Below, in pieces: positions 1,220 to 35,888 of a stretch of 35,888 nt of DNA (its first letter is position 1; each line of letters opens with the position of its first letter). Under the pieces are notes generated by a model. The model made no database searches, had not been told where the DNA came from, and was given only the letters and a program-made list of their open reading frames with translations. The position numbers and the translations under genes are program-made. The DNA comes from Sphaeroforma arctica JP610. Taxonomy: Eukaryota. The stretch is taken from contig NW_014040542.1 in assembly GCF_001186125.1 (NCBI RefSeq), positions 200,099 through 235,986 on the forward strand, read 5' to 3'.

Positions 1220-7957
<6,738 letters not shown>

Positions 7958-21764: not shown

Positions 21765-22060
21765 TTATATCTCCTGGCCATTCCTGACTGTGTGAGGCCA
21801 CCACGAGGCCTTGGTCCACACTGGCACAATAATGACTGCCCGTTCGAGGCGTCGATCGAGTTGTTCCAGGATGGGGCCCAGCATGGTCTCTGGTGGGGCC
21901 AATAGTTCCAGGGACTTGTCCCATTTGTCGTGGAAGGGGTTCGCAAACGACACCTGCCCTGGTGGCTTTTCCCCAAGTAGTAGCTTTCTGGATAAGATCT
22001 CTCCGAGGGGTTCGGTTTGATCATCCACTTCCGGAACAGCCGCAGAATCGTCTCGTACCT
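21765..22060 (-). pseudogene. DIRS N6-adenine methyltransferase-like domain (partial)
   Basis: Directly follows RNase H and carries the F-x3-W, xAPP and VIIVPxWxxxxWWP pattern typical of DIRS MT domains. No DLFA motif is visible. Confidence 0.65.
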
Positions 22061-23595
22061 TGGTACTCGAGGAGCTTCCCTGATCTTGAGAGGTCGTCCG
22101 CGGCGAGCTTTAGCTCGCCGGGCATGTATCCCAAAGAGACTGGCCAGAGGCTGGAGCTGGACGTTCATGAGCTTGGATTGGCTTCTGCGCATCCGTAGTG
22201 CGTGCAGAGAAGTACTGCTGTCGGTGAGCTATAGCAGAGGGATCTGGTCGACGTTTTGAGTTCTGTGGAATTACTCGTACGCTAAAACGAAAGCCTTGAG
22301 TCCGAGAACTGCGATAGGCCATAGTCTTTCGGTGAGGCATCACGGACCTGCGAAGGTGGTCGGGTTTCCTGCCAGTAAAGCGTTGCCCCGAACCCTATCT
22401 TGAAGGGGTTCGAGGTGAGTGCTGCTCTGTGGTCGGGAAGCCAAATCGATTTCGATCTTTTTAAACGCTGCACCTGAGAGACAAATTATCTGGGCTCGTG
22501 TCCATGGTGTCGATTGTTGTAGATCGGCGATGAATGAATATAGTCCCAGTATTGATAACCCTGCCCACAGCAGGTATCCGCAGAAAGATTGTCACAGTTG
22601 CGTCGCAATCTGTGAGGGCTTCGTGAGAAGTTTGGCCGTGAAGGCCGGCGTCATCTCTATCGTGTTGCGCACTAGGTCGATTATCACGCCTAAGTGTTGC
22701 AACCTTGTCACGGGGAAGTCCCAATAGCCCTTCCCGGGAGCTAACTCCAATCCAAGTTCTGTGAGCAGGTGATCGATGTAACACTTCTGCCCCATTAAAG
22801 TGTGTGGACGACCCAGAAGCAGTAGGTCATCCACTTAGAGTATTATTCTGATCCCTAGGCTCCTTGTCATGCGACAGAAGACGTCCATCAACAGGAGAAC
22901 CACGCTGGTGAGAACGTGGCTCCCATGGGTAAGGCTAGGAAGCTCCACAGTGGGCCGTGGGGGTATCCAAATTACCAGAGTTTCGGGTCGGCCACAGTCA
23001 ACGCATAGAAGCCATCTTTGATGTCTGACGACATGGCTACATCCCCCCGGCGGGCAATTTGGGACAGTTTCTCCAGTCCTTCTGCTCAGTAGGTTTACTT
23101 CTCTGCTGCCTTGTTGATGTCCTTGGGGCTCAGTATCAGACGGGAGTGCTTTCCATCTGACTTCAGGATCATAAACGCAGAGTGGACCAGGTATTCCTCC
23201 CAGTCCTGACAGCGTCGGATAACTCCTGCCTCTCGGAGTCTTTCGAGCTCCGTGTTCGTCATCGCTTCGGTCACATCCGCATTGTTGATCCATCGACCTT
23301 TGCTGGAGGGCTTCGGAGGACCTTGGGGACCCCATGCTGGACGTACCCCATACTTGAAGGCTTAGAGAACTTCCTGGGACGCCTCATAGGCCCACCATGT
23401 TGGTAGCGCTTTTTTTTACTCTGAGGTATAAGGGAGTCTTGGAAGATTTATTCTTCCTTGACATTGAACTTTCCCTTGGTAAGGACCAATTCGTGTTGCT
23501 TCTTCTTCGTTGCCTTAACGTACTTGAAGATGGTAGCAGAGCTATTGTAAGTAGGGCAGACTTGCTGTTCCACGAGGGCAGCTAATGCAGAGCCC

Positions 23596-25468: not shown

Positions 25469-27710
25469 ATGAGACAATCTTACGCCAAATACGAAAGTAT
25501 TGAGTGTCTGAATACGCGACACAAGGGCAACAATTATTGGGGCTGGCAATTAGCCATTATTGTAGGACCGGGAATTGGTGGTATGATCAAACACTTTGGT
25601 GTTACGTTGTTCTACATGGAGACCAAAGCCATCTATAACTTTGCTCTGGACAGTTTACAGAAATCAATAGGCCCAGGGCCAAAAGCACCACTGAATACGA
25701 GACTCGTGTTTGCTGAAGGGTTCCTGACTCAGGCCGATGTAAATCCAGGGCAGTTCTTTTTCTCAGACAGATATCATATCAAGATAAACTTCTACAAGAA
25801 CTTGAGGGGTCTTTATAGTGGCAAACTCCAGGTAATGATTCTAGATGTCCTACATCCAGGAACGCGAAGAAGTTCTGATGCGCACTTTATAGTTGTAATC
25901 CAGATACTGCAGACGAGAGACGCGGACTCGACTGCAAGTTACATTCCTAACCTCGTGAACACGAACATGTCCAGATACCTTGCTAATTAGGTGCTTACGA
26001 TTAGCGACTTTGGAACTCAAAGGTTCCCAGATGAGCGTGTCGACGCATGCGCAAGTCGGAAGTTGGTTCAAGAATTTGAGACTGGATCCGCCCACCCTCA
26101 TCAATCGCATCGCAGATATTTGCAGCTAGGTTTTAGTAGCATGCAGAGCTGACAAGGTGAAATATGCAATGGAATACGGTTTGGGGTGTTATGGCAAGGG
26201 AGGTACTCCATCCATATCAGAATTTCATAACTGCTCAATGTCGACAATAGGGATCTCGGAAGTGCACAGAGATGTTTATCGAAGTGGTCATCAAATCTGT
26301 AGGATCCTAAAACCCTAAAACCCGTTATTCAAGGAGTCGGATTTTCATAAACTTTGGAAGTTCAACATCGAGCAACGACCTGAAAAAGCTTGCCCGCATA
26401 TCAACGCGGAAGGCTCCGATAGTTCTACGTTAGAAGGAGTACAGGCTGACGAGGTGACTTTGGCAAAGATCCGGGACTGGATTATGACGCTCCACCTGGC
26501 TCGAATGATGAAGGTCCAATGGATATGCACAGATCGGAGGTGCCTAAAAGTACGAAGGACAAGGGGAAGAAGCAGCCGAGTAGTAGCAAGTATAGTACAT
26601 ACACCGACCAGAATTTCACCGAGTATCAGAAACTGTGTTCTGGTGTATACAGTGGGTGCATATAAGAATGGACATGTGGATATCCTTAAATAACTTACAG
26701 ATGTATTGGGCCTGATGTTTCAAAAGCTCAACGATATAGATCATGGCCAGAATAAGTTGGCCGCGATAGGTAACGGATTGTTGAAATACTCTGCGTTACA
26801 AAGAGGCGAAGAACGACTCCTTAACAGTCTTTTCGAGGGCCCAAAGACTATACCGCGTCAGCCTGGAGGACAACAAATCAAATGTAAGCATGGAGTGGAG
26901 CTAAAGCAGCAGCCGACGAAGCGGAAAGTGGAATCAACCGACGAACCTAATGCTCCGGATAGGCCAGCTGTCGAACCTAATACTACGGATAAGCCAGCCG
27001 CCGAACCTGATGCTCCGGATAAGCCAGTCGCCGAACTTAATGCTCCGGATAAGCCAGCCACCGAGCCTAATGCTTCGGATAAGCCAGCCGCCGAACCTAA
27101 TGCTCTGGATAAGCCAGCCGCCGAACCTAATGCTCTGGATAAGTCAGCTGCCGATACAAGTGCGGATTGCAGTGTATTAATGGAGCTGTGGATAGTAAAG
27201 AACTCCAGGAGACCCGACACTATTACATGCACGTCCAGGAGAAACCTTCAGATGGCAAAAAAAAAATGCTAAAGGAGAGTCATCTGCAGGTCACTCCATC
27301 AGTGACAAATCCGCTCCGCGTAACACCAACACCAACAACTCATCAAGGTCCTCCAGTGACGTACCACGACCAACTATGTGATAGACCTTACGAATACACC
27401 AACCCAGGACATCCTGACCCAGGACACCGACCTGACCCGGACTAAAGTGATACCACAGACTCCAGTAAAATGAAAGTCAACGACACGTTTCAGGATGTCA
27501 CTCAGCAACACAAGGTTCACTATCGATACAAGTACGTGGTAACAAACCGGCCAAAGCCACGTGTTTGTGGGACTTGCAGAGAGCAATGTCATCATGGTGG
27601 TAAATCGTACATATATATACAGAGAAGGGGAATTCTTCTAACACTAGAACAACGCAGACATTGGCCGGATGAAGTCCATGGTTCCCCCCAAAACTTTCAA
27701 TTACTATAAG
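25469..27710 (+). mobile_element. Degenerate Mutator-like (MULE) transposase region
   Basis: CLNTRHKGNNYWGWQLAIIVG...FGVTLFYMETKAIYNFALDSL and SDRYHIKIN resemble the MULE DDE domain (DxTxxxNxY...ETxxxYxxxL; CxxH). Downstream are a decayed SWIM-like segment TYTDQNFTEYQKLCSGV (~26597-26650) and a zinc-knuckle-like RVCGTCREQCHH (~27560-27595). Catalytic residues are decayed, frames are broken, and no TIRs were found. Confidence 0.7.
26941..27150 (+). repeat. 30-bp tandem repeat, 7 copies, encoding EPNAPDKPAA-like units
   Basis: Seven in-frame copies of CCGAACCTAATGCTCCGGATAAGCCAGCCG variants within ORF 26706-27272. Confidence 0.95.
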
Positions 27711-28880
27711 TAGACATTACAGACGGCCCTATTTTGAAACCAAAAGGGAGCAAGTGTATCGTTATAGTGGGTCATGATACCACAGAACAGATCAAAGCTA
27801 ACACTCCTATTATGTATTTGATAGAGCTCATCTACAACCTTGATGAATTTAAGCACGAAGGTCACCGGTATTGGGCCAGTCAAGAAGAGATCGATGCTTG
27901 ATTTATTACAGCATAAGACTAAGAATAGAATGGCCATCCAGCTTTAGTTAGTTCTTCATGTATAATAGCTGCTACTAATAATAAAGTAAAGTCTTTATAA
28001 TAATAAATTGCACGTATGAGAAGCATGCTGAAGACGCAGGTATCAGACGCAAGTATAAGACGCAAGTATAAGACGGCAGGTATAAAATACATGTAATAGA
28101 TGCATGCATACAACGCATGTATAAGACGCATGCGGCACACGCATGTATAAGATGCATGCGGCAGACGCATGTATAAGATGCATGTATAAGACGCATGCGT
28201 AAGATGTATGCATAAGACACATGCAGCAGACATATGTATAAGAAGTGTGTATAGGATGTATGTACAAGACGCATATATAAGATGTATGCATAATATGCAT
28301 GTATAAGACGCAGACGGCTGACGCATGTAAAAGACGCATGTGTATCATGCATATATAAGACGCATGCAGCACACGCATGGATATGACAGATGTGGCAGAC
28401 ACATGTATAAGACGTATGTTTAAGGCGCATGCGTAAGATGCATGTATATTGTATACGGTGAAGTTTTGCTTAACAGCCTTTATTTTTTGTTTGCATTCAT
28501 GTAAGTTTATGCTATCTTACGTAACTTCCGGTGGAAATCATCTGTGTCATTCGCTTCCGAAGACTCCTCATCAAATTTCGGTTCTGACTCTGATTCCGAG
28601 TCCGTCACCGGTCGCGCGCGACACACTTATCAGTGTAGGTCCCGCTGAACCACGCTGTGAAGTCTTTTTCTGTGGCGTTTTCTTGACGTCCTTAGAACTG
28701 CTTCCGCTTCCATGAGCGGCTTTGGCCGCCGCTATTTCCCCCCCAGCTGATAGCTCCAATGCGACGAACTTATCAATCGCTGCGTCTGCCTCGGGGTTTG
28801 GGGTCAAAGAGCATTTGGGGCCCTTGAACTTACGTGTAAATAGTCTTGGACGCTTTCGATTTTCTTCTACGTTGCGTCAT
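27704..28880 (-). pseudogene. Degenerate spliced gene of unknown function, convergent on the MULE transposase
   Basis: ATG at 28880 opens a K/R-rich then acidic exon ending DDFHRKL at 28521, followed by a GTAAGA donor. The acceptor TAGCAG lies before 27968 and is phase-compatible (LPIIHEELTKAGWPF). Stops and frameshifts are present. Confidence 0.4.
28020..28445. repeat. Degenerate minisatellite (GCATGTATAAGAC-like units)
   Basis: Many imperfect 10-14-bp tandem units; they lie within the putative intron 27969-28520. Confidence 0.85.
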
Positions 28881-29549
28881 GGTGTTGATTGCGTTAATGA
28901 ACTTAAAAATATGTAAAATTCGGACTAACCAGGCTGACTATACAATACTAATAAGTTAACGTAAAAGAAAATACGTCTTAAAATTGCTCAAAGTAATTTA
29001 AGTTTAGCTTCAGCCCTAGGTTATGACCGAAAGGTTATGGAATTTAAGACTAAATTATTATCTTTATAGTTCCGTTCTAATCGGTCACTACTTCGGTCTA
29101 GATTTATTTGGTGTATCTAAAATCAGATTTCATTTCATTGGATGCATGATACATCATTCCCTTGTCATTTCATGCTTCGAAACACTCCTCCAATCGTAAT
29201 CACACTTCTTCTCATCGATCTTCACCGAGCCACTACAACGGCTTTGGGAACCATACCATACGTACATACATTGTAATTTATCTGCTTTGAAATAAATAAT
29301 ATCATTGTTCCTACTAAAATAACTCTAAGTCTAACTTAAAAAGTATAAAAGAAATCAAAACACCATACAGGTGCAGTTAAATGTCTGCACATATACCTCA
29401 TCACATGGTGTCTAGCTCTCCATCCCATTGAATGCTTAGACGTGTCAGGCAAAAACAAATCATCATATGCGAATATCAAGAATACAATAGCAGTTCGGTA
29501 CACCGGGCTGTCAGTGTCAACAAAAATGACACCCTGCCAAAAGAGTTCA

Positions 29550-30122
29550 TGTTAATATAGGCGGATAAATAGTGATGCGTATAAGCCCTCAGAAGAGGTG
29601 TAAGTTATTGTTCTCAGATATTAAAGTATCTTAAAAGTGTTTTAAGTTTTAAGTGAATAGTTGTGATTTATTTGATTCGAGACCCTGCTTTTATATGCGT
29701 TGGTCACGTAATCCTTGAGCCATTAAAAAACACCTCTTAAGGTGAAAAAGGTTCTCACTTAATCTATGATCCAATCCAAAGGCAGCGTCGCCACGTCTTT
29801 AACTGATCTTGGCTTCCATTGTAATCTTTGGCCTTATACGTTTAGATTGTACTCCTCCGATATTTATGGATGCCCTTATGCCCCCATCAGAGATTTTTTA
29901 AATTGATGATTCCGTACTCCCGGCACTTCGGCTCCGAGATTATTTTCCATCTGTAATATTTCTGTGTCCCTCTCTGAGTTTAGATTCTCTCCTTGGTTGA
30001 TGCTGGGATAAACCTTGTTGAGCCTCCGGTGTTTGACCGTAGTTTTATGCTTGGTAAACAATCCTGGTTTACTGTGATCAATACAAATAAACTCACATAT
30101 TACACGTTTATTTTGTCTAACA
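29550..30122 (+). repeat. Candidate 5' LTR of the Copia element (3' end firm, 5' end uncertain)
   Basis: Ends ...CTAACA at 30122 directly before the PBS; AATAAA at 30086-30091. The start may be TGTTA at 29550 or TGTTG at 30016. The second LTR is outside the window. Confidence 0.45.
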
Positions 30123-30133
30123 GGTTATGGGCC
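30123..30133 (+). promoter_or_regulatory. Primer binding site GGTTATGGGCC (internal initiator tRNA-Met type)
   Basis: Abuts the LTR-terminal CA and matches the PBS type of Drosophila copia, which is complementary to the anticodon region of tRNA-iMet. Confidence 0.85.
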
Positions 30134-30287: not shown

Positions 30288-31730
30288 ATGTCCAACAGCA
30301 AAGCACACGTTTTGCCCAACGCGTTTAGAACCGTCGAACAGGGCAATGACTTCCGCGAACGATTCTGGCCTCAATGTCCACCATATGTCACTGTTGAGCA
30401 AGCCAACAATCATTTGCAAAACATTCGAAAGTGCAAAGCTGATCTTGACATCACTGAGGTTAACACTCACGCTGCAACTGCTCTCGCACATCTATCACTA
30501 TTAGAAAGCGAACTCCAACACAGTCGCACTGAAGCAGCAGAGCTTGAACTAGAGGTGGAAAATTACAAACGGCAAAACACCAACTTAGGTGACGATCACA
30601 AACAATTACTTGCCAGATACAACACTCTTCGCGACGAACACCTCACGCTCACCGACCGTCTCAACGATACCCAGACTCGGCTATACGAACAAACTGAAAA
30701 ATCCACTCAAAATTTGGAAACACTGGAAGGCGAACTTCAAACCACACGCACTCAGCTCGCAGAAACTATCGACAAACTCAACCGAGCCAAACAGCAACAC
30801 AAGAAGCCTACCACCTTCGCCGAAAAGTATGGCATTAGCCTCCAAGCACCACCTATCCCACTCAGTGATTGCCCTAAGTACAAAGACGTGTACAAACGCA
30901 CACAACTAACAGGCTCTAACAGCTTTGGTGCTTGGCTAATTGACACCAAAATGGAGATGTCCTACTATGGCACTTTTCACCGTTTACACCCTGATTGCAA
31001 CAAACTCAAAACGGAGGATTCAACGTCCATACTGATGCTAAGTGTAATCGCATATTGGTAGATTCCATCAGTGAGGGACTAATAACGACAGTCTACAAAC
31101 AATACGTAAACAACCCCCCAGCCGAGTTCTTCAAACACATCTGCACAGTACACAACACAGGCAGGTTTGGCAGATTCTGGGACACCAAGCAACGCCTTAC
31201 ATCGTTCAAATCGACTGATAGTACAGAAACCACAATGCAGGCACCTGAAGCTCTCCGTCAAAACCTATTAGATGTTGGCGAAGTCATACCCGACAAGTGT
31301 CCTATTTGAGCCCTTCTATACAGTCTAGGTGACAGTTACACGCTCCTACGCTCCACTATCTTCGACATGGATGAAGAAAAACTCACGATTGATGACGCAT
31401 ACCATATGACCATGAAATTTGAAGGTGGCCATCAACTTCATAAAAGCGACAACACTGCTTCTGGCATCAATGCTATCAACACTAAACTATACACCAGTAG
31501 TGGCGATCACGGTAAAGACACCGCTGCTGGTCAACGGGAACGTCGCAACATTATCTGCCTCTTATGCAACGAGAAGGGCCATGGCATCCACGGCTGCCCA
31601 TCATCTATCTGCCGCAAATGTGGTTCGAACAACCACAAATGAAAGAAATGTCCTGTCGATCGCTCTACACTCCACTGCTCTAAATGCGACAAACCAGGTC
31701 ATACCGATGCTGCATGTCTACAAAAATGAA
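30288..31730 (+). pseudogene. Copia gag: N-terminal coiled coil, UBN2-like domain, three CCHC zinc knuckles
   Basis: ORFs 30288-31061, 30995-31309 and 31367-31642 join across one frameshift and in-frame stops. Knuckles: CLLCNEKGHGIHGC, CRKCGSNNHK*KKC, CSKCDKPGHTDAAC. Confidence 0.85.
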
Positions 31731-32339
31731 GGCACGGAGCCCAGTCCGATCAGATACGTCATTATCAAATATCCGATATCTTACACGATAGTACACATCA
31801 CCAGCCCACCATAGATAATCCAGCTATCGTACATATCTATAAGTTTAATAGTCTCCAATATCAGACATCTGGACCCAACAACGAGCCTCAATATAGGGCA
31901 TCCCATATTGATTCCGGCGCAATGGTACACATACGTACTACAAGCGATGGTCTCAAGAATATAGAATATGGGCAATTTATTGTAGAGTTTCCAGATAAGC
32001 CACAAATAACCGTACATGAACGTGGCAAAATTCCCGGTCTCGGTCCAGTATTAGTTATGCCCCAGGCCACTCAAAATATCCTCTCAGTCCACCATATGCA
32101 ACAACATGGACTCGGGGTCTATTTCCCTCCTGCCTCTACTGACAATTCGACACCAGAATGTCACATTATACAGAACGACCAAATCGTCCAACGCATCTCA
32201 CTCAGCGACGGACAATACAAAATCAATACTTTCACCACTCATACTGCCACTGAATGGCATGACATCCTTGGTCACACACATCCATATAAAGCCCAAACAA
32301 TGCTTCATGATAACGACATTGTTATCAAGCAACCCTTTA

Positions 32340-32740
32340 GTCTACAAAGATCGAGTCAAAACAATCTTCGGCAATGTCGATATCGACCTCTTTGCCAACA
32401 AACAGAATGCTCAAGTCTCCGTCTATTGTAGCTTGGAACCGGATGCACCCTTACACGATGCATATACACAATCTTGGAACCAGCCTCATAAACACTCATA
32501 CGGCAACATCCCATTCACCAAGGACGATTGGCGCAAAACACTTCGTAAACTAAACAACGACAACGGTCTAGTCACGGTGGTATTTAGTCTCAAACCACAC
32601 ACCAAAAACTACAATCAAATCAAACTACAACTTCATTCACACGTCGAGATTATCAAAACCGACGAGAACACCTTCCTGCGCAACGGCAACGAAAGTGTTG
32701 GTCCCCCTCCCTGGCGATAAATCTGTATGGCTAGGTTAGG
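32340..32740 (+). pseudogene. DNA N6-adenine methyltransferase-like domain embedded in Copia pol
   Basis: IFGNVDIDLFANKQNAQVSVYCSLEPDAPLHDAYTQSW...SYGNIPF...RKTLRKL...VTVV...FLRNGNESVGPPPW. It has a SAM-binding-type DLFA motif (32385-32396), DAxxxxW and a catalytic-type N-I-P-F motif, in the layout of DIRS/phage Dam-like domains. Confidence 0.8.
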
Positions 32741-32820
32741 CAATGAACAGTATGCCGTGCCTCCAACAGCTGAACTTCTCTCCGCTGATACAAGCGGAAG
32801 TCATCGCACATCCTCAGCCA

Positions 32821-33600
32821 CTCAAATTCTGTCCTCCATGCGCACGCGGTAAGATGCGACGCCATCCTATCTCCAAAGCAGCTAAGGCTAGTGAGACGTT
32901 ACCCCCTCTCGCCACAATACTTCACGTCAATTTGAAAACAGAATATCCCACCAGTCCAGGTGGATATACCTGTAACACAAAATATGTCGACGCCAACTCT
33001 GGGGCATCCTTTGTCTACCCTCTTAAGACAAACGACGAGGCATCCAGCACCCTTGACCGCTTCTACACAGATATTGGTAAGGACTATCTAGCCAATCTAC
33101 GGGAAGTCAAATGTGATAGAGGAGGTGAGTTTGTATCTAGCGAGTTCAACAGAATCAACACTGTTCAGCACGTCAAGGTCACTTACATACCTACAAACTC
33201 TCGAGCATTACGCGGTCTCGTAGAACGTACTAATGGTTTCATCAAAAACATCACACTTGAACTTCTCAAACACTCGCGCCAACCTGACGTTATGTGGGCA
33301 GAAGCACTACGCCACGCTACACTTATCAAGTTCGTCCAACATAACAAACACAACGTCTGACAAAAGTCATCCTGGGAAGTCTTCTGGGGTTCCAAACTTA
33401 CACAGCGCATCAAACACATGCATATCTACGAATGCCAAGTAGCTTTCATCAATCAAGACCGACAAGACAAATTAGATGACCATGCAACTCTAGGTGTCTA
33501 TCTCGACCACGACACGCAGTCTAAATACTTCGATGAATGCCGTATTCTCAGTGTGAAAACCGGAAAAAATTGTCACTCTCGCGACGTCCAGGTTAATCAT
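32821..33600 (+). pseudogene. Copia integrase (CxxC, rve core, SH3-like region)
   Basis: CPPCARGKMRR; first catalytic Asp appears as Asn (HVNL); CDRGGEF; VERTN; KLDDHATLGVYL; SRDV. Confidence 0.92.
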
Positions 33601-34812
33601 CAAGTATTCCCAACGTGGACAATGGTCGGCACTACATCAGTCGCAAGTTTCCCAGATACCACACCTGACAATGTACCTACTATCAGAGAGATCACACTCG
33701 CCAACATCAACTCTACCAATGTCTCCGACTCGCCCACCCTCTTCATTCCAGGGGAGACAATGACTACCACAACATCCTGCTCCACCAATGTCCCCGACCC
33801 GCCCACCCTCGTCATTCCAGGGGAGCAACTACCTACAACTCCCACCTCAAACATTCCAGGGTAGCCTCTGACTACCATATCTCCAAATAGCCACGCTCTA
33901 CTTATTCCAGAGGAGCACCTACCATTCATCATTCAACAACAAAGTAACCACACCAGGACAGATACTACACACACATCAGTACACAACCAACCCACTGCTA
34001 CTGCAACTCAACCGCGGACTACCCTACAACCACTCCTCCCCACACTAAATAACACCGATCGACATGGTGCCACCGCGCTACTCCCCACGCATACTACACC
34101 ACCCTCACGCCCACCTGCACTTCTCGACCAGCCAACCATAACTGTCGAGGACACGGTTAACAGAGAACTACAAAGTCACATTGCGAAACAACCCATTTCG
34201 CGTACATTAAGAGGTCTCCTCTTACCGGATCGCAACAATAGCGGCAGTCTCAATGAATCCGCTTTACCCAATCAGATGCGTATGGCTCGTCAGCGTGATA
34301 GACAAAAGACACATCATAACGCTACTAATCAACATAATGCTGAATATATTAACACCACAGCCACTATCACAACATCACCACGTTCCATGTCCCCTCCTTC
34401 TAGACACGATCATTGGAGCCCAGATATCGAAAACACTGGCAACTTTTCCAATCACGATCACATCTCTCCTATCATGTCTACACAAGAGTTCAATTTCAAT
34501 GACAAATTCAGACGCACAGTCGCACATCTGAAGCATACATCCAAAACTAACAAAGCTCACCGTCAGTTTCGCCGTGCCGTACTCCAACTGGCTCGTTCCA
34601 GCACCAATAAAGTACTTACGACTATATCTCATACACCTCCACGACTATCCGCCACAGTTGACTACGACAAAGATGACATACCCATCAAAATCAACACTGT
34701 TATACCCGACGACTCCACTGACCTACATGAACGTACACGACAACAGGTTATGTATAATGATACAGTACATAAACTGTACACAGCATGCACCAAACTTCAA
34801 TCGCATCCACTT

Positions 34813-35888
34813 ACCCCTGCTACCATTCGCCAAGCGCTCAAAGGCAAAGATGCCGACATTTGGCGCGCGTCCATCCAACGCGAACTCGACAGCCTACAGC
34901 AGGCTGGTACGTACGATCTCCTACGTCCGGACGAAGTACCAGACGACGCCTTTACCGTCTCTAGCAAATGGATTTTTAAAATCAAGATGATAGATAGTAT
35001 GGTGGATAAGTATAAGTCTAGACTTCGTGCTCGAGGATAAAGACGTACGCGACCACATGCAGTCACGACACCCTCCGCACGCTTCTTGCCGTCGCCGCCT
35101 CTAACAAATGGCACGTTGAACAAATGAACGTGGACACAGCATACCTGTACGCTGACCTGGATGAGCCAATCTACATGCGTCCACCACCAGGGTCTGCCAC
35201 CGTCGGTCTCCCATCTGATCACATCATGAAACTCAATAAGAGTCTATATAGGCGGGCTTAAACAATCAGGTCGCCTATGGCATGCTCTTCTAAAGTCCAA
35301 ACTCTTCAACATGGGCTTCCACCAAGCAGCCTCGGATTCTGCCTTTTCATCATTGACTCCGATAGTTTTTTCTGCGTTGTTCTCATATATGTCGATGACC
35401 TCATAGTTTGTGGCAAATCTGCCGCCGACATCTCACATTTCATAGAACTGATCCAAGCAGACTTTAGCTGCAAAGAAATGGGTAAACCGCAATGGCTCTT
35501 AGGCGTACGCGTTCTCTCGACAAACGACTCCCTCAGCTTAGTTCAAGATAACTACATCCGCGAGGCCTTAGAGACCTTTGACCTCACCGACAGTCCCTCG
35601 GCACCGACACCGTCCCACACACATATGTGAATATCGTAATTGATAGGCACATTACAATATCTGTCGGTTTTAACTCGCATCGACATCACCTACGCCCTAA
35701 ACACACTAGCTCGGTATATGAACAACCCATCTGCCCAACACTGGATAGCAGCTCAACGTATCCTACGATACCTCAAAGATACATCACAATTAGGTCTCGC
35801 TTACTCTTTCCACGAGGGACCACTAGTTGCCGATGCTGTCTACGATGCTGACTACACTGCCTGTCCTGACACACGACGTTCTACTACC
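34813..35888 (+). pseudogene. Copia reverse transcriptase (RVT_2) and start of RNase H
   Basis: PATIRQAL...W...ELDSL, KWIFKIK, YKSRL, QMNVDTAYL, LIYVDDLIV, WLLGVRV, DADY...TRRSTT. Contains internal deletions and frameshifts. Confidence 0.93.

What the first reader, a model, noticed from the sequence alone, without database searches (positions are those of the whole stretch)
32255..32850. Copia retrotransposon with an adenine methyltransferase-like domain inside the integrase HHCC zinc finger
Seen: WHDILGH (32255-32275) and CPPCARGK (from 32830) are ~185 codons apart. The gap holds DIDLFANKQNAQ...YCS...DAYTQSW...YGNIPF...LRKL...GPPPW. The insert is on the pol strand, has the same A/C-rich composition as its flanks, and shows no TSD or terminal repeats. 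Known: in Copia integrases the HH and CC halves are normally about 25-30 aa apart. DLFA plus (D/N)-(P/I)-P-(F/Y) are the SAM-binding and catalytic motifs of amino-methyltransferases, and this compact Dam-like domain is a recognised part of DIRS elements, not of canonical Copia. Inference: a Copia family captured a 6mA writer as a loop in integrase. That would tether it to the cDNA or integration site, where it could mark new copies or shield them from silencing. I know of no description of this architecture but could not search. Caveat: this copy is decayed, with frameshifts on both sides of the domain.
Basis: partly seen in the sequence, partly recalled or inferred. Interest (0 to 1): 0.92.

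Follow-up and report, generated by a model that had tools for sequence, protein, structure and literature searches.

The report
Copia integrase with built-in adenine methyltransferase
A broken Copia-type jumping gene, likely from a single-celled relative of animals, carries an adenine-methyltransferase-like domain in the middle of its integrase zinc finger, as do several diverged relatives, so the enzyme that inserts new copies likely also put a methyl mark on them; such domains are known from other retrotransposon groups, but I found none described in Copia.

Summary
Confirmed. A decayed Ty1/Copia element (gag, protease, integrase, RVT_2-type RT, RNase H start) has its integrase HH and CxxC 185 codons apart, with a Dam-family (PF05869-like) adenine-methyltransferase domain between them. 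It is not a one-off. A second genomic copy (87% identical) has it at the same place. Six Sphaeroforma arctica gene models (44-68% identical in the domain) carry it; three place it 25-26 residues after the HH, and one runs on into CxxC. A model of one relative (pLDDT 75) best matches PCIF1 (Z 10.1) and T4 Dam (Z 8.0). Adenine methyltransferases in LTR retrotransposons, including in S. arctica, were described in a May 2026 preprint. Its LTR lineages are Gypsy-like, and its main text never mentions Copia. So the idea is known, but the Copia capture and the position inside the zinc finger appear new. Activity is untested: the motif is N-I-P-F rather than N-P-P-F, related domains were inactive in E. 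coli, and every copy seen is broken or partial. The scan earlier noted a Gypsy DAM-LTR and Copia elements with cytosine methyltransferases on other DNA, but not this architecture.

The parts
30085..30122 (+). Likely remnant of the 5' LTR, ending in CA; cut off upstream by a high-copy repeat
   Evidence: Sequence; the high-copy repeat ends at 30083/30084 with many different flanks. The LTR reading is inferred from its place before the PBS.
30123..30133 (+). Primer-binding-site-like GGTTATGGGCC
   Evidence: Position; likeness to the Drosophila copia PBS is recalled, not tested.
30288..31720 (+). Broken gag region: coiled-coil ORF, then three CCHC-type zinc knuckles at about 31556-31720
   Evidence: Translations; weak zf-CCHC_3 match, E=0.72.
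31898..32155 (+). Aspartic protease (D-S-G at 31910)
   Evidence: Pfam Pol_BBD E=0.0034; 34/81 identical to P0008.
32255..32275 (+). HH half of the integrase zinc finger (WHDILGH)
   Evidence: the same motif is in the second copy and in P0003 and P0008.
32331..32735 (+). Dam-like amino-methyltransferase domain (DLFA 32385, NIPF 32505, GPPPW 32700); broken by a frameshift near 32334 and a stop at 32718
   Evidence: fold of the relative P0001.
32736..32829 (+). Linker of about 35 residues, helical in the P0001 model; frameshift at about 32785-32794
   Evidence: tblastn of P0001 and P0004; helix 151-162 of the model.
32830..32841 (+). CxxC half of the integrase zinc finger (CPPC)
   Evidence: shared by the second copy; CNPC in P0004.
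32902..33360 (+). Integrase core. The first catalytic Asp is Asn in this copy (32929); D 33115 and E 33223 are spaced D(35)E
   Evidence: Pfam rve E=0.012; motif positions; relatives have H-V-D-L.
33406..33612 (+). Integrase SH3-like C-terminal domain
   Evidence: Pfam SH3_retrovirus 29.8 bits, above the cut-off of 27.
34933..35888 (+). Broken Copia-type reverse transcriptase and the start of RNase H; the element runs off the window
   Evidence: Pfam RVT_2 58.9 and 45.2 bits against a cut-off of 31.6; the RNase H start is read from the translation.

Best explanation
This is a dead copy of a Copia retrotransposon lineage, likely of the ichthyosporean Sphaeroforma, whose integrase carries a Dam-family methyltransferase domain between the HH and CxxC halves of its zinc finger; in active elements this domain likely methylated adenines on the element's own new cDNA. 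Shown: the architecture, its presence in several diverged lineages at a fixed position, homology to Dam, and (for one relative, by prediction) the methyltransferase fold. Inferred: one capture from another retroelement, more likely a Gypsy DAM-LTR than a DIRS; retention by selection; and closure of the zinc finger with the domain looped out. Because it sits inside integrase, the domain would stay with integrase after protease cleavage and would be held on the cDNA or RNA:DNA intermediate in the particle and the pre-integration complex. By the preprint's model, a 6mA seed on the new copy would then be maintained by host AMT1 and keep the insertion transcriptionally open.
For: Second copy: one 596-nt contig in each of 2 of 2 runs spans HH to CxxC including the domain, with 58 differences in 440 nt; its breaks lie at other places than this copy's. 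Relatives: 5 of 12 hits among 1.84 billion proteins, plus P0020, are S. arctica gene models. P0008 and P0003 run protease-HH-domain and P0004 runs domain-CxxC. The second His lies 25, 26 and 26 residues before the D-[WY]-x-L start of the domain in P0003, P0008 and P0020. Five Copia rows form one clade, 100/98-99. Conservation: against P0003 the domain is 40/60 identical, the integrase core 83/111 and protease-to-HH 33/73; against P0008 the domain is 29/63 and protease-to-HH 49/141. Between the two genomic copies 15 of 28 differences fall on third codon positions (p=0.02). Fold: the P0001 model (pLDDT 75) matches PCIF1 (Z 10.1, rmsd 3.2, 135 aligned) and T4 Dam (Z 8.0, rmsd 2.8, 110 aligned) among 48,161 chains; PCIF1 is also first in Foldseek. 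N-I-P-Y lines the active site of Erm adenine methyltransferases (PMC9386465, passage). Gypsy DAM-LTRs of S. arctica are 6mA-enriched and more expressed (preprint).
Against: No activity data. The catalytic motif is N-I-P-F or N-Q-P, not the N-P-P triplet that the preprint finds in almost all DAMs. The second copy has amino-acid-changing differences at both the N and the P of that motif (32506, 32512). Related DIRS and LTR DAMs gave no 6mA in E. coli. No single intact HH-domain-CxxC protein was found. The S. arctica relatives are automatic gene models of probably decayed copies, and I did not see their DNA. The Pfam score is below the cut-off, and Foldseek gave no match at E<=0.001. The third-position excess is modest and rests on 28 of 61 differences. 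The donor is unresolved: DIRS p-AU 0.068, phage p-AU 0.089. The host is inferred from relatives only.
Confidence: 0.55

Rival explanations
1. The domain is kept as a non-catalytic module of integrase that binds nucleic acid, SAM or chromatin, for example to steer integration towards or away from 6mA chromatin, and writes no mark.
For: N-P-P is replaced by N-I-P or N-Q-P across the clade; heterologous DAMs were inactive; the eukaryotic DAM lacks CD-1 and TR-1 of prokaryotic Dam (preprint); a place inside integrase suits a targeting role.
Against: DLFA, Y-C-S, D-A-[FY]-x-Q-x-W and the motif-IV Asn are kept across lineages 40-68% alike; N-I-P-Y is an active motif in Erm; intact-looking Gypsy polyproteins P0006 and P0015 have N-[IV]-P-F too.
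Confidence: 0.2
2. The domain is an active enzyme, but its substrate is the element's RNA (genomic RNA, cap or primer) or the RNA strand of the hybrid inside the particle, not DNA.
For: The best structural match is the RNA cap methyltransferase PCIF1, well above T4 Dam (Z 10.1 vs 8.0); no DNA 6mA arose in E. coli; the polyprotein is packaged with the RNA.
Against: The sequence family is phage DNA Dam; PCIF1 may simply be the only solved member of this subgroup; Gypsy DAM-LTR copies carry more DNA 6mA.
Confidence: 0.12
3. The zinc finger no longer closes: the insert split it, and the methyltransferase is released by the protease or hangs as a separate domain, so it is not tethered to the integration complex.
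For: The HH to CC distance is 185 codons against 30-35 residues in the Gypsy integrases P0006 and P0015; no model of the whole region was obtained.
Against: Both halves are retained: HH in this copy, the second copy, P0003 and P0008; CxxC in this copy, the second copy and P0004. The native-length spacer after HH is kept at 25-26 residues.
Confidence: 0.1
4. A one-off nested fragment of a DIRS or Gypsy element landed in this dead copy and has no role.
For: Frameshifts flank the domain; a DIRS element with its own methyltransferase lies 9 kb away.
Against: It is present at the same place in the second copy and in diverged relatives; the local DIRS domain is only 6/85 identical and differs in composition; no flanking repeats; the two copies break at different places.
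Confidence: 0.03

Closest known systems
DAM-LTR retrotransposons (Fernandez-Moreno et al., bioRxiv 10.64898/2026.05.21.726589; read: abstract, introduction, results, discussion, methods; supplements closed)
   Same: An LTR retrotransposon with a DIRS-type Dam domain in pol; an ichthyosporean lineage is reported from S. arctica, Abeoforma and Pirum; same proposed role (6mA seed maintained by AMT1).
   Different: Its five lineages were assigned with RVT_1 trees and are Ty3/Gypsy-like (the Euglena group mixed with DIRS); 'copia', 'Ty1' and 'zinc' occur 0 times in the main text. Here the RT is RVT_2, the order is PR-IN-RT-RH, and the domain is inside the integrase zinc finger rather than between domains.
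DIRS tyrosine-recombinase retrotransposons with MT domain (PMC3783388, passages read)
   Same: Homologous Dam/PF05869 domain with DLFA and N/F-P-P-F motifs.
   Different: DIRS elements lack protease and DDE integrase and carry the domain after RNase H; this element has both and carries the domain in integrase.
Gypsy chromovirus polyproteins P0006 and P0015 (unnamed public contigs)
   Same: Nearest non-Copia relatives of the domain (41/120 and 36/120 identical); share N-[IV]-P-F and the TFL...G-x-P-P-W tail.
   Different: The domain lies between RNase H and a normal, compact HHCC finger.
Retrotransposon-encoded cytosine DNMTs (de Mendoza et al. 2018, PMC5890265, passages read)
   Same: Capture of a DNA methyltransferase by a retroelement; self-marking of cDNA proposed.
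   Different: C5 cytosine enzymes in LINE, DIRS and Gypsy elements; the paper states that Symbiodinium Copia lack a DNMT.
PCIF1/CAPAM (PDB 6IRX) and T4 Dam (PDB 1Q0S)
   Same: Best structural matches of the P0001 model (Z 10.1 and 8.0); both are N6-adenine methyltransferases.
   Different: 11-13% sequence identity; the retroelement domain is a bare core of about 135 residues without their extra domains, so the substrate cannot be read from the match.

Membership tests
Ty1/Copia LTR retrotransposon | pol order protease-integrase-RT-RNase H | tested here: met
   Pol_BBD, rve, SH3_retrovirus and RVT_2 in this order; RNase H start in the translation.
Ty1/Copia LTR retrotransposon | RT of the RVT_2 type | tested here: met
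   58.9 and 45.2 bits against a cut-off of 31.6; no RVT_1 hit.
Ty1/Copia LTR retrotransposon | Paired LTRs, PBS and target-site duplication | tested here: inconclusive
   CA end plus PBS-like motif at 30122/30123; the 5' LTR is truncated and the 3' end lies outside the window.
Ty1/Copia LTR retrotransposon | DDE integrase with HHCC finger | tested here: met
   HH, CxxC and D(35)E present; the first Asp is Asn in this dead copy but Asp in P0003-P0005.
Ty1/Copia LTR retrotransposon | Compact HH-to-CC spacing of about 25-35 residues (typical, recalled; not used to define the superfamily) | tested here: not met
   185 codons; this is the peculiarity reported.
Dam family PF05869 (phage/DIRS N6-adenine methyltransferase) | Pfam score above the curated cut-off | tested here: not met
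   18.1 bits vs 28.1, E=0.0022; relatives 16.9-19.2 bits; the Gypsy relative P0006 passes with 31.
Dam family PF05869 (phage/DIRS N6-adenine methyltransferase) | Homology to family members by profile and tree | tested here: met
   E=7.7e-9 to P0006; E=3.5e-22 with a non-Copia profile; the retroelement profile hits phage Dam at about 1e-11; nested among retroelement DAMs.
Dam family PF05869 (phage/DIRS N6-adenine methyltransferase) | SAM-binding D-L-F-A and catalytic N-P-P-[FY] motifs | tested here: inconclusive
   DLFA kept; the catalytic motif reads N-I-P-F or N-Q-P; N-I-P-Y works in Erm.
Dam family PF05869 (phage/DIRS N6-adenine methyltransferase) | Rossmann-type amino-methyltransferase fold | tested here: met
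   Predicted for the relative P0001, 53% identical; the window's own domain gave no usable model.
Dam family PF05869 (phage/DIRS N6-adenine methyltransferase) | Adenine methylation activity | not testable with these tools
   Needs biochemistry or modification calls.
DAM-LTR (Fernandez-Moreno et al. 2026) | LTR retrotransposon with a DAM domain in pol | tested here: met
DAM-LTR (Fernandez-Moreno et al. 2026) | Ty3/Gypsy-like RVT_1 RT and organisation, as in the described lineages | tested here: not met
   RVT_2 RT and Copia order, so it is not one of the described lineages, though it may work like them.
DAM-LTR (Fernandez-Moreno et al. 2026) | Host with AMT1/6mA; copies enriched in 6mA | not testable with these tools
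   The preprint reports 6mA in S. arctica; the host here is inferred, and no modification data were available.
DIRS retrotransposon | Tyrosine recombinase, no protease or DDE integrase, MT after RNase H | tested here: not met
   Protease and DDE integrase are present and the domain lies inside integrase.

The most novel reading that the evidence does not exclude
A Copia lineage whose integrase is itself a DNA adenine methyltransferase: an active 6mA writer looped out of a still-closed HHCC zinc finger stamps the cDNA or the target site at integration, so that each new copy enters the host's AMT1-maintained active chromatin. It would be the first adenine-methyltransferase capture in Copia, independent of the Gypsy ones, and an enzyme domain inserted inside a retroviral-type integrase zinc finger.
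Probability: 0.4. Interest if true: 0.85.

Novelty: new variant of a known kind. Interest (0 to 1): 0.62.

Why it matters
What retroelement Dam domains do has been open since they were found in DIRS, and the 2026 preprint could show only a correlation with 6mA and a negative E. coli assay. A capture in the other big LTR superfamily, likely in one of the same hosts, is an independent repeat of the experiment. The position inside integrase is the strongest anatomical hint so far that the domain acts on the cDNA or integration complex rather than freely, which would also explain why the isolated domain was inactive. Existing S. arctica Nanopore data could test this directly, and Copia-DAM copies may have been counted among the 'non-DAM' controls. 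It also suggests that the integrase zinc finger tolerates an insert of about 165 residues, and that screens using the Pfam cut-off and RVT_1 miss such elements.

Tried and rejected
No whole genome is held for this window, so copy number and full-length elements could not be surveyed. Homologue search with the single domain among long proteins: 0 of 37 candidates. PDB sequence searches gave only chance hits. The first fold (window domain, 7 rows) failed at pLDDT 40 and was not used. No fold of a whole HH-domain-CxxC region was possible, because no natural unbroken sequence was found; closure of the finger is untested. No complex prediction was run. Relatives outside Sphaeroforma were not found: metagenome scans 0 of 354 and 1 of 48 (L001 is a chance match in a frame full of stops); viral scans 0 of 9 and 0 of 6. 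These scans need near-exact peptide words, so absence is weak. No RNA holder was listed with certainty, which says nothing on expression. P0002 and P0007 (2 of the 12 hits) are repeat-protein artefacts and were dropped. P0004, P0005 and the window's DIRS row were left out of the trees for too little overlap or alignment, and four of seven phage rows as near-duplicates. The DIRS element in the window was rejected as donor (6/85 identity). ApT, CpG and GATC content of the element is unremarkable. A second Atlas look-up did not complete. Literature: ten searches listed no paper on a Copia-borne adenine methyltransferase. Apart from the four papers cited, I saw only listings. Repbase, GyDB, subscription journals and the preprint's supplementary figures and tables, which show domain architectures and unassigned DAMs, were not visible and could contain these elements.

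Full report
Observation. The second His and the first Cys are 557 nt apart. HH, insert and CxxC lie in three frames, and a stop at 32718 cuts the last strand of the domain. The insert has the A/C-rich make-up of its flanks and no flanking direct repeat of 8 nt or inverted repeat of 6 nt.

The element. From 30123 on the + strand come a PBS-like motif after a CA end (the likeness to the copia PBS is recalled), a broken gag with zinc knuckles, protease (Pol_BBD), integrase core (rve), SH3 domain (above cut-off) and an RVT_2-type RT (58.9 and 45.2 bits, cut-off 31.6). An RNase H start follows at the window's end. This is Ty1/Copia by order and RT type. The copy is dead: there are several frameshifts and stops, and the first catalytic Asp of integrase is Asn.

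The insert. Pfam Dam gives E=0.0022, below the cut-off; PHROG 111 gives E=0.00066, and 14 of 18 alignment rows match it; the Atlas returns Dam clusters at 0.91-0.92. Of the 20 weak phage hits listed, those with an annotation are labelled Dam or methylase. phmmer over 1.84 billion proteins gave 12 hits: five S. arctica gene models, one Gypsy polyprotein with a Dam domain above cut-off (P0006, E=7.7e-9), four DIRS-like or orphan fragments and two repeat artefacts (ten of the twelve were looked up by name). A profile of ten non-Copia retroelement DAMs hits 2 of 917 six-frame pieces of the window, this insert at E=3.5e-22 (the rows were selected by likeness to the query, so this is partly circular). 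The window's own domain did not fold (pLDDT 40). The 53%-identical relative P0001 did (pLDDT 75, pTM 0.72). Its best matches are PCIF1 (Foldseek E=0.0019, TM 0.53; Z 10.1, rmsd 3.2, 135 aligned) and T4 Dam (Z 8.0, rmsd 2.8, 110 aligned), followed by other SAM-dependent methyltransferases.

One-off or family trait? Contigs of public runs show twice single-copy depth over the insert. In 2 of 2 runs a separate 596-nt contig spans HH to CxxC with 58 differences in 440 nt; four runs show raised depth along the whole element. This second copy is broken at other places (near 32586-32590 and 32773-32807). By my hand reading of the tables it has no break at the first junction, where it shows the D-W-x-L motif that opens the domain in all relatives. 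It also has amino-acid changes at the N and P of the catalytic motif, so it is dead too. Of the 28 differences listed between 32363 and 32565, 15 are at third codon positions (p=0.02); 12 listed rows outside that stretch and 21 unlisted rows were not used. Six S. arctica gene models carry the domain. P0008 runs protease-HH-domain, P0003 runs protease-HH-domain and later the integrase core, P0004 runs domain-linker-CxxC, P0001 domain-linker, and P0005 and P0020 are further fragments. The distance from the second His to the domain start is 25, 26 and 26 residues in P0003, P0008 and P0020: the native spacer is kept and the insertion point is fixed. Across these lineages the domain (44-68% identity) is conserved more than the protease-to-HH region (35-45%) and somewhat less than the integrase core (60-75%), as expected of a maintained domain. 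These models are automatic predictions whose DNA I could not see, and none covers the whole finger.

Origin. Five Copia rows form one clade (100/99; 100/98 with a phage outgroup). Their sister is a pair of Gypsy chromovirus DAMs (87/82 and 88/86, not firm) that share the N-[IV]-P-F motif, but grouping with DIRS is not rejected (p-AU 0.068). The DIRS element 9 kb upstream is not the donor (6/85). The host is probably Sphaeroforma, since every Copia-type relative is from S. arctica; this is inferred. I found none in other organisms, which is weak evidence given the word-based searches.

Mechanism. In Copia, integrase begins just before the HH motif after protease cleavage (general knowledge). 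A domain between HH and CxxC would therefore stay part of mature integrase if the finger closes, and retention of both halves suggests that it does (inferred, not modelled). It would then be held on the cDNA ends in the particle and the pre-integration complex. The most likely use is SAM-dependent N6 methylation of adenines on the new cDNA or hybrid, seeding a mark that host AMT1 maintains, the model the preprint gives for Gypsy DAM-LTRs. I put this at 0.55; the architecture and its family-level status are about 0.95. Against it: the motif departs from N-P-P (though N-I-P-Y lines the Erm active site, PMC9386465 passage), isolated retroelement DAMs did not methylate E. coli DNA, and the closest solved structure acts on RNA. 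The rivals are a non-catalytic targeting module (0.2), an RNA substrate (0.12), a split finger with an untethered enzyme (0.1) and a passenger insertion (0.03).

What is known. Dam domains in DIRS are established (PMC3783388 passages; PMC5890265 passages). An earlier scan note led to bioRxiv 10.64898/2026.05.21.726589, of which I read the abstract, introduction, results, discussion and methods. It reports five DAM-LTR lineages, one in S. arctica and its relatives, enriched in 6mA and expression. They were assigned through RVT_1 trees and are described as Ty3/Gypsy-like, the Euglena group mixed with DIRS; 'copia', 'Ty1' and 'zinc' do not occur in the main text. Its screen used a HMMER cut-off of 1e-5. 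The Copia domains score only 17-19 bits on Pfam Dam, so they were probably missed or left unassigned (inference; the supplements were closed). Ten literature searches listed nothing on a Copia-borne adenine methyltransferase. Earlier scan notes list Copia elements with cytosine-methyltransferase-like domains between protease and integrase in other genomes (unchecked), but none with this domain or position.

Verdict. The feature is real and family-level, and it is a new variant of a recently described kind. The concept of an LTR element carrying a 6mA writer is in print as a preprint; the Copia capture and the placement inside the integrase zinc finger are not, as far as I could search. Interest 0.62; 0.85 if the integrase-tethered writer proves active.

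Noticed in passing
window 21765-23383, minus strand: Decayed DIRS-like element (RT, RNase H and methyltransferase read from the translation). Its methyltransferase is of a divergent type without a clear DLFA; it is missed by Pfam but hit by a retroelement DAM profile at E=1.4e-7.
   Followed up: partly
window about 29500-30084: High-copy repeat (summed depth about 18-38 times single copy in run X10) that ends sharply at 30083/30084 with many different flanks and truncates the Copia 5' LTR; its class is unknown.
   Followed up: no
window 2733-5800, minus strand: Intron-rich methionine aminopeptidase 2-like host gene (Peptidase_M24 in two exons).
   Followed up: partly
window 33620-34800: Long Pro/Thr/His-rich spacer of about 1.2 kb between integrase SH3 and RT, mostly open in frame, with a 60-nt internal duplication; part of it is replaced by other sequence in a second copy.
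   Followed up: no
window 30288-31061: Coiled-coil ORF of 257 residues directly after the PBS, in place of a recognisable gag N-terminus.
   Followed up: no
proteins P0006, P0015, P0016: Gypsy chromovirus polyproteins from unnamed contigs: P0006 and P0015 read RT-RNase H-DAM-integrase-chromodomain, and P0016 has the DAM at the C-terminal end. Whether these layouts match the preprint's lineages was not checked.
   Followed up: partly
window 2038-2592, 26905-27184, 27997-28495: Tandem arrays with 23-, 30- and 13-nt units; the 30-nt array lies in an open frame.
   Followed up: no
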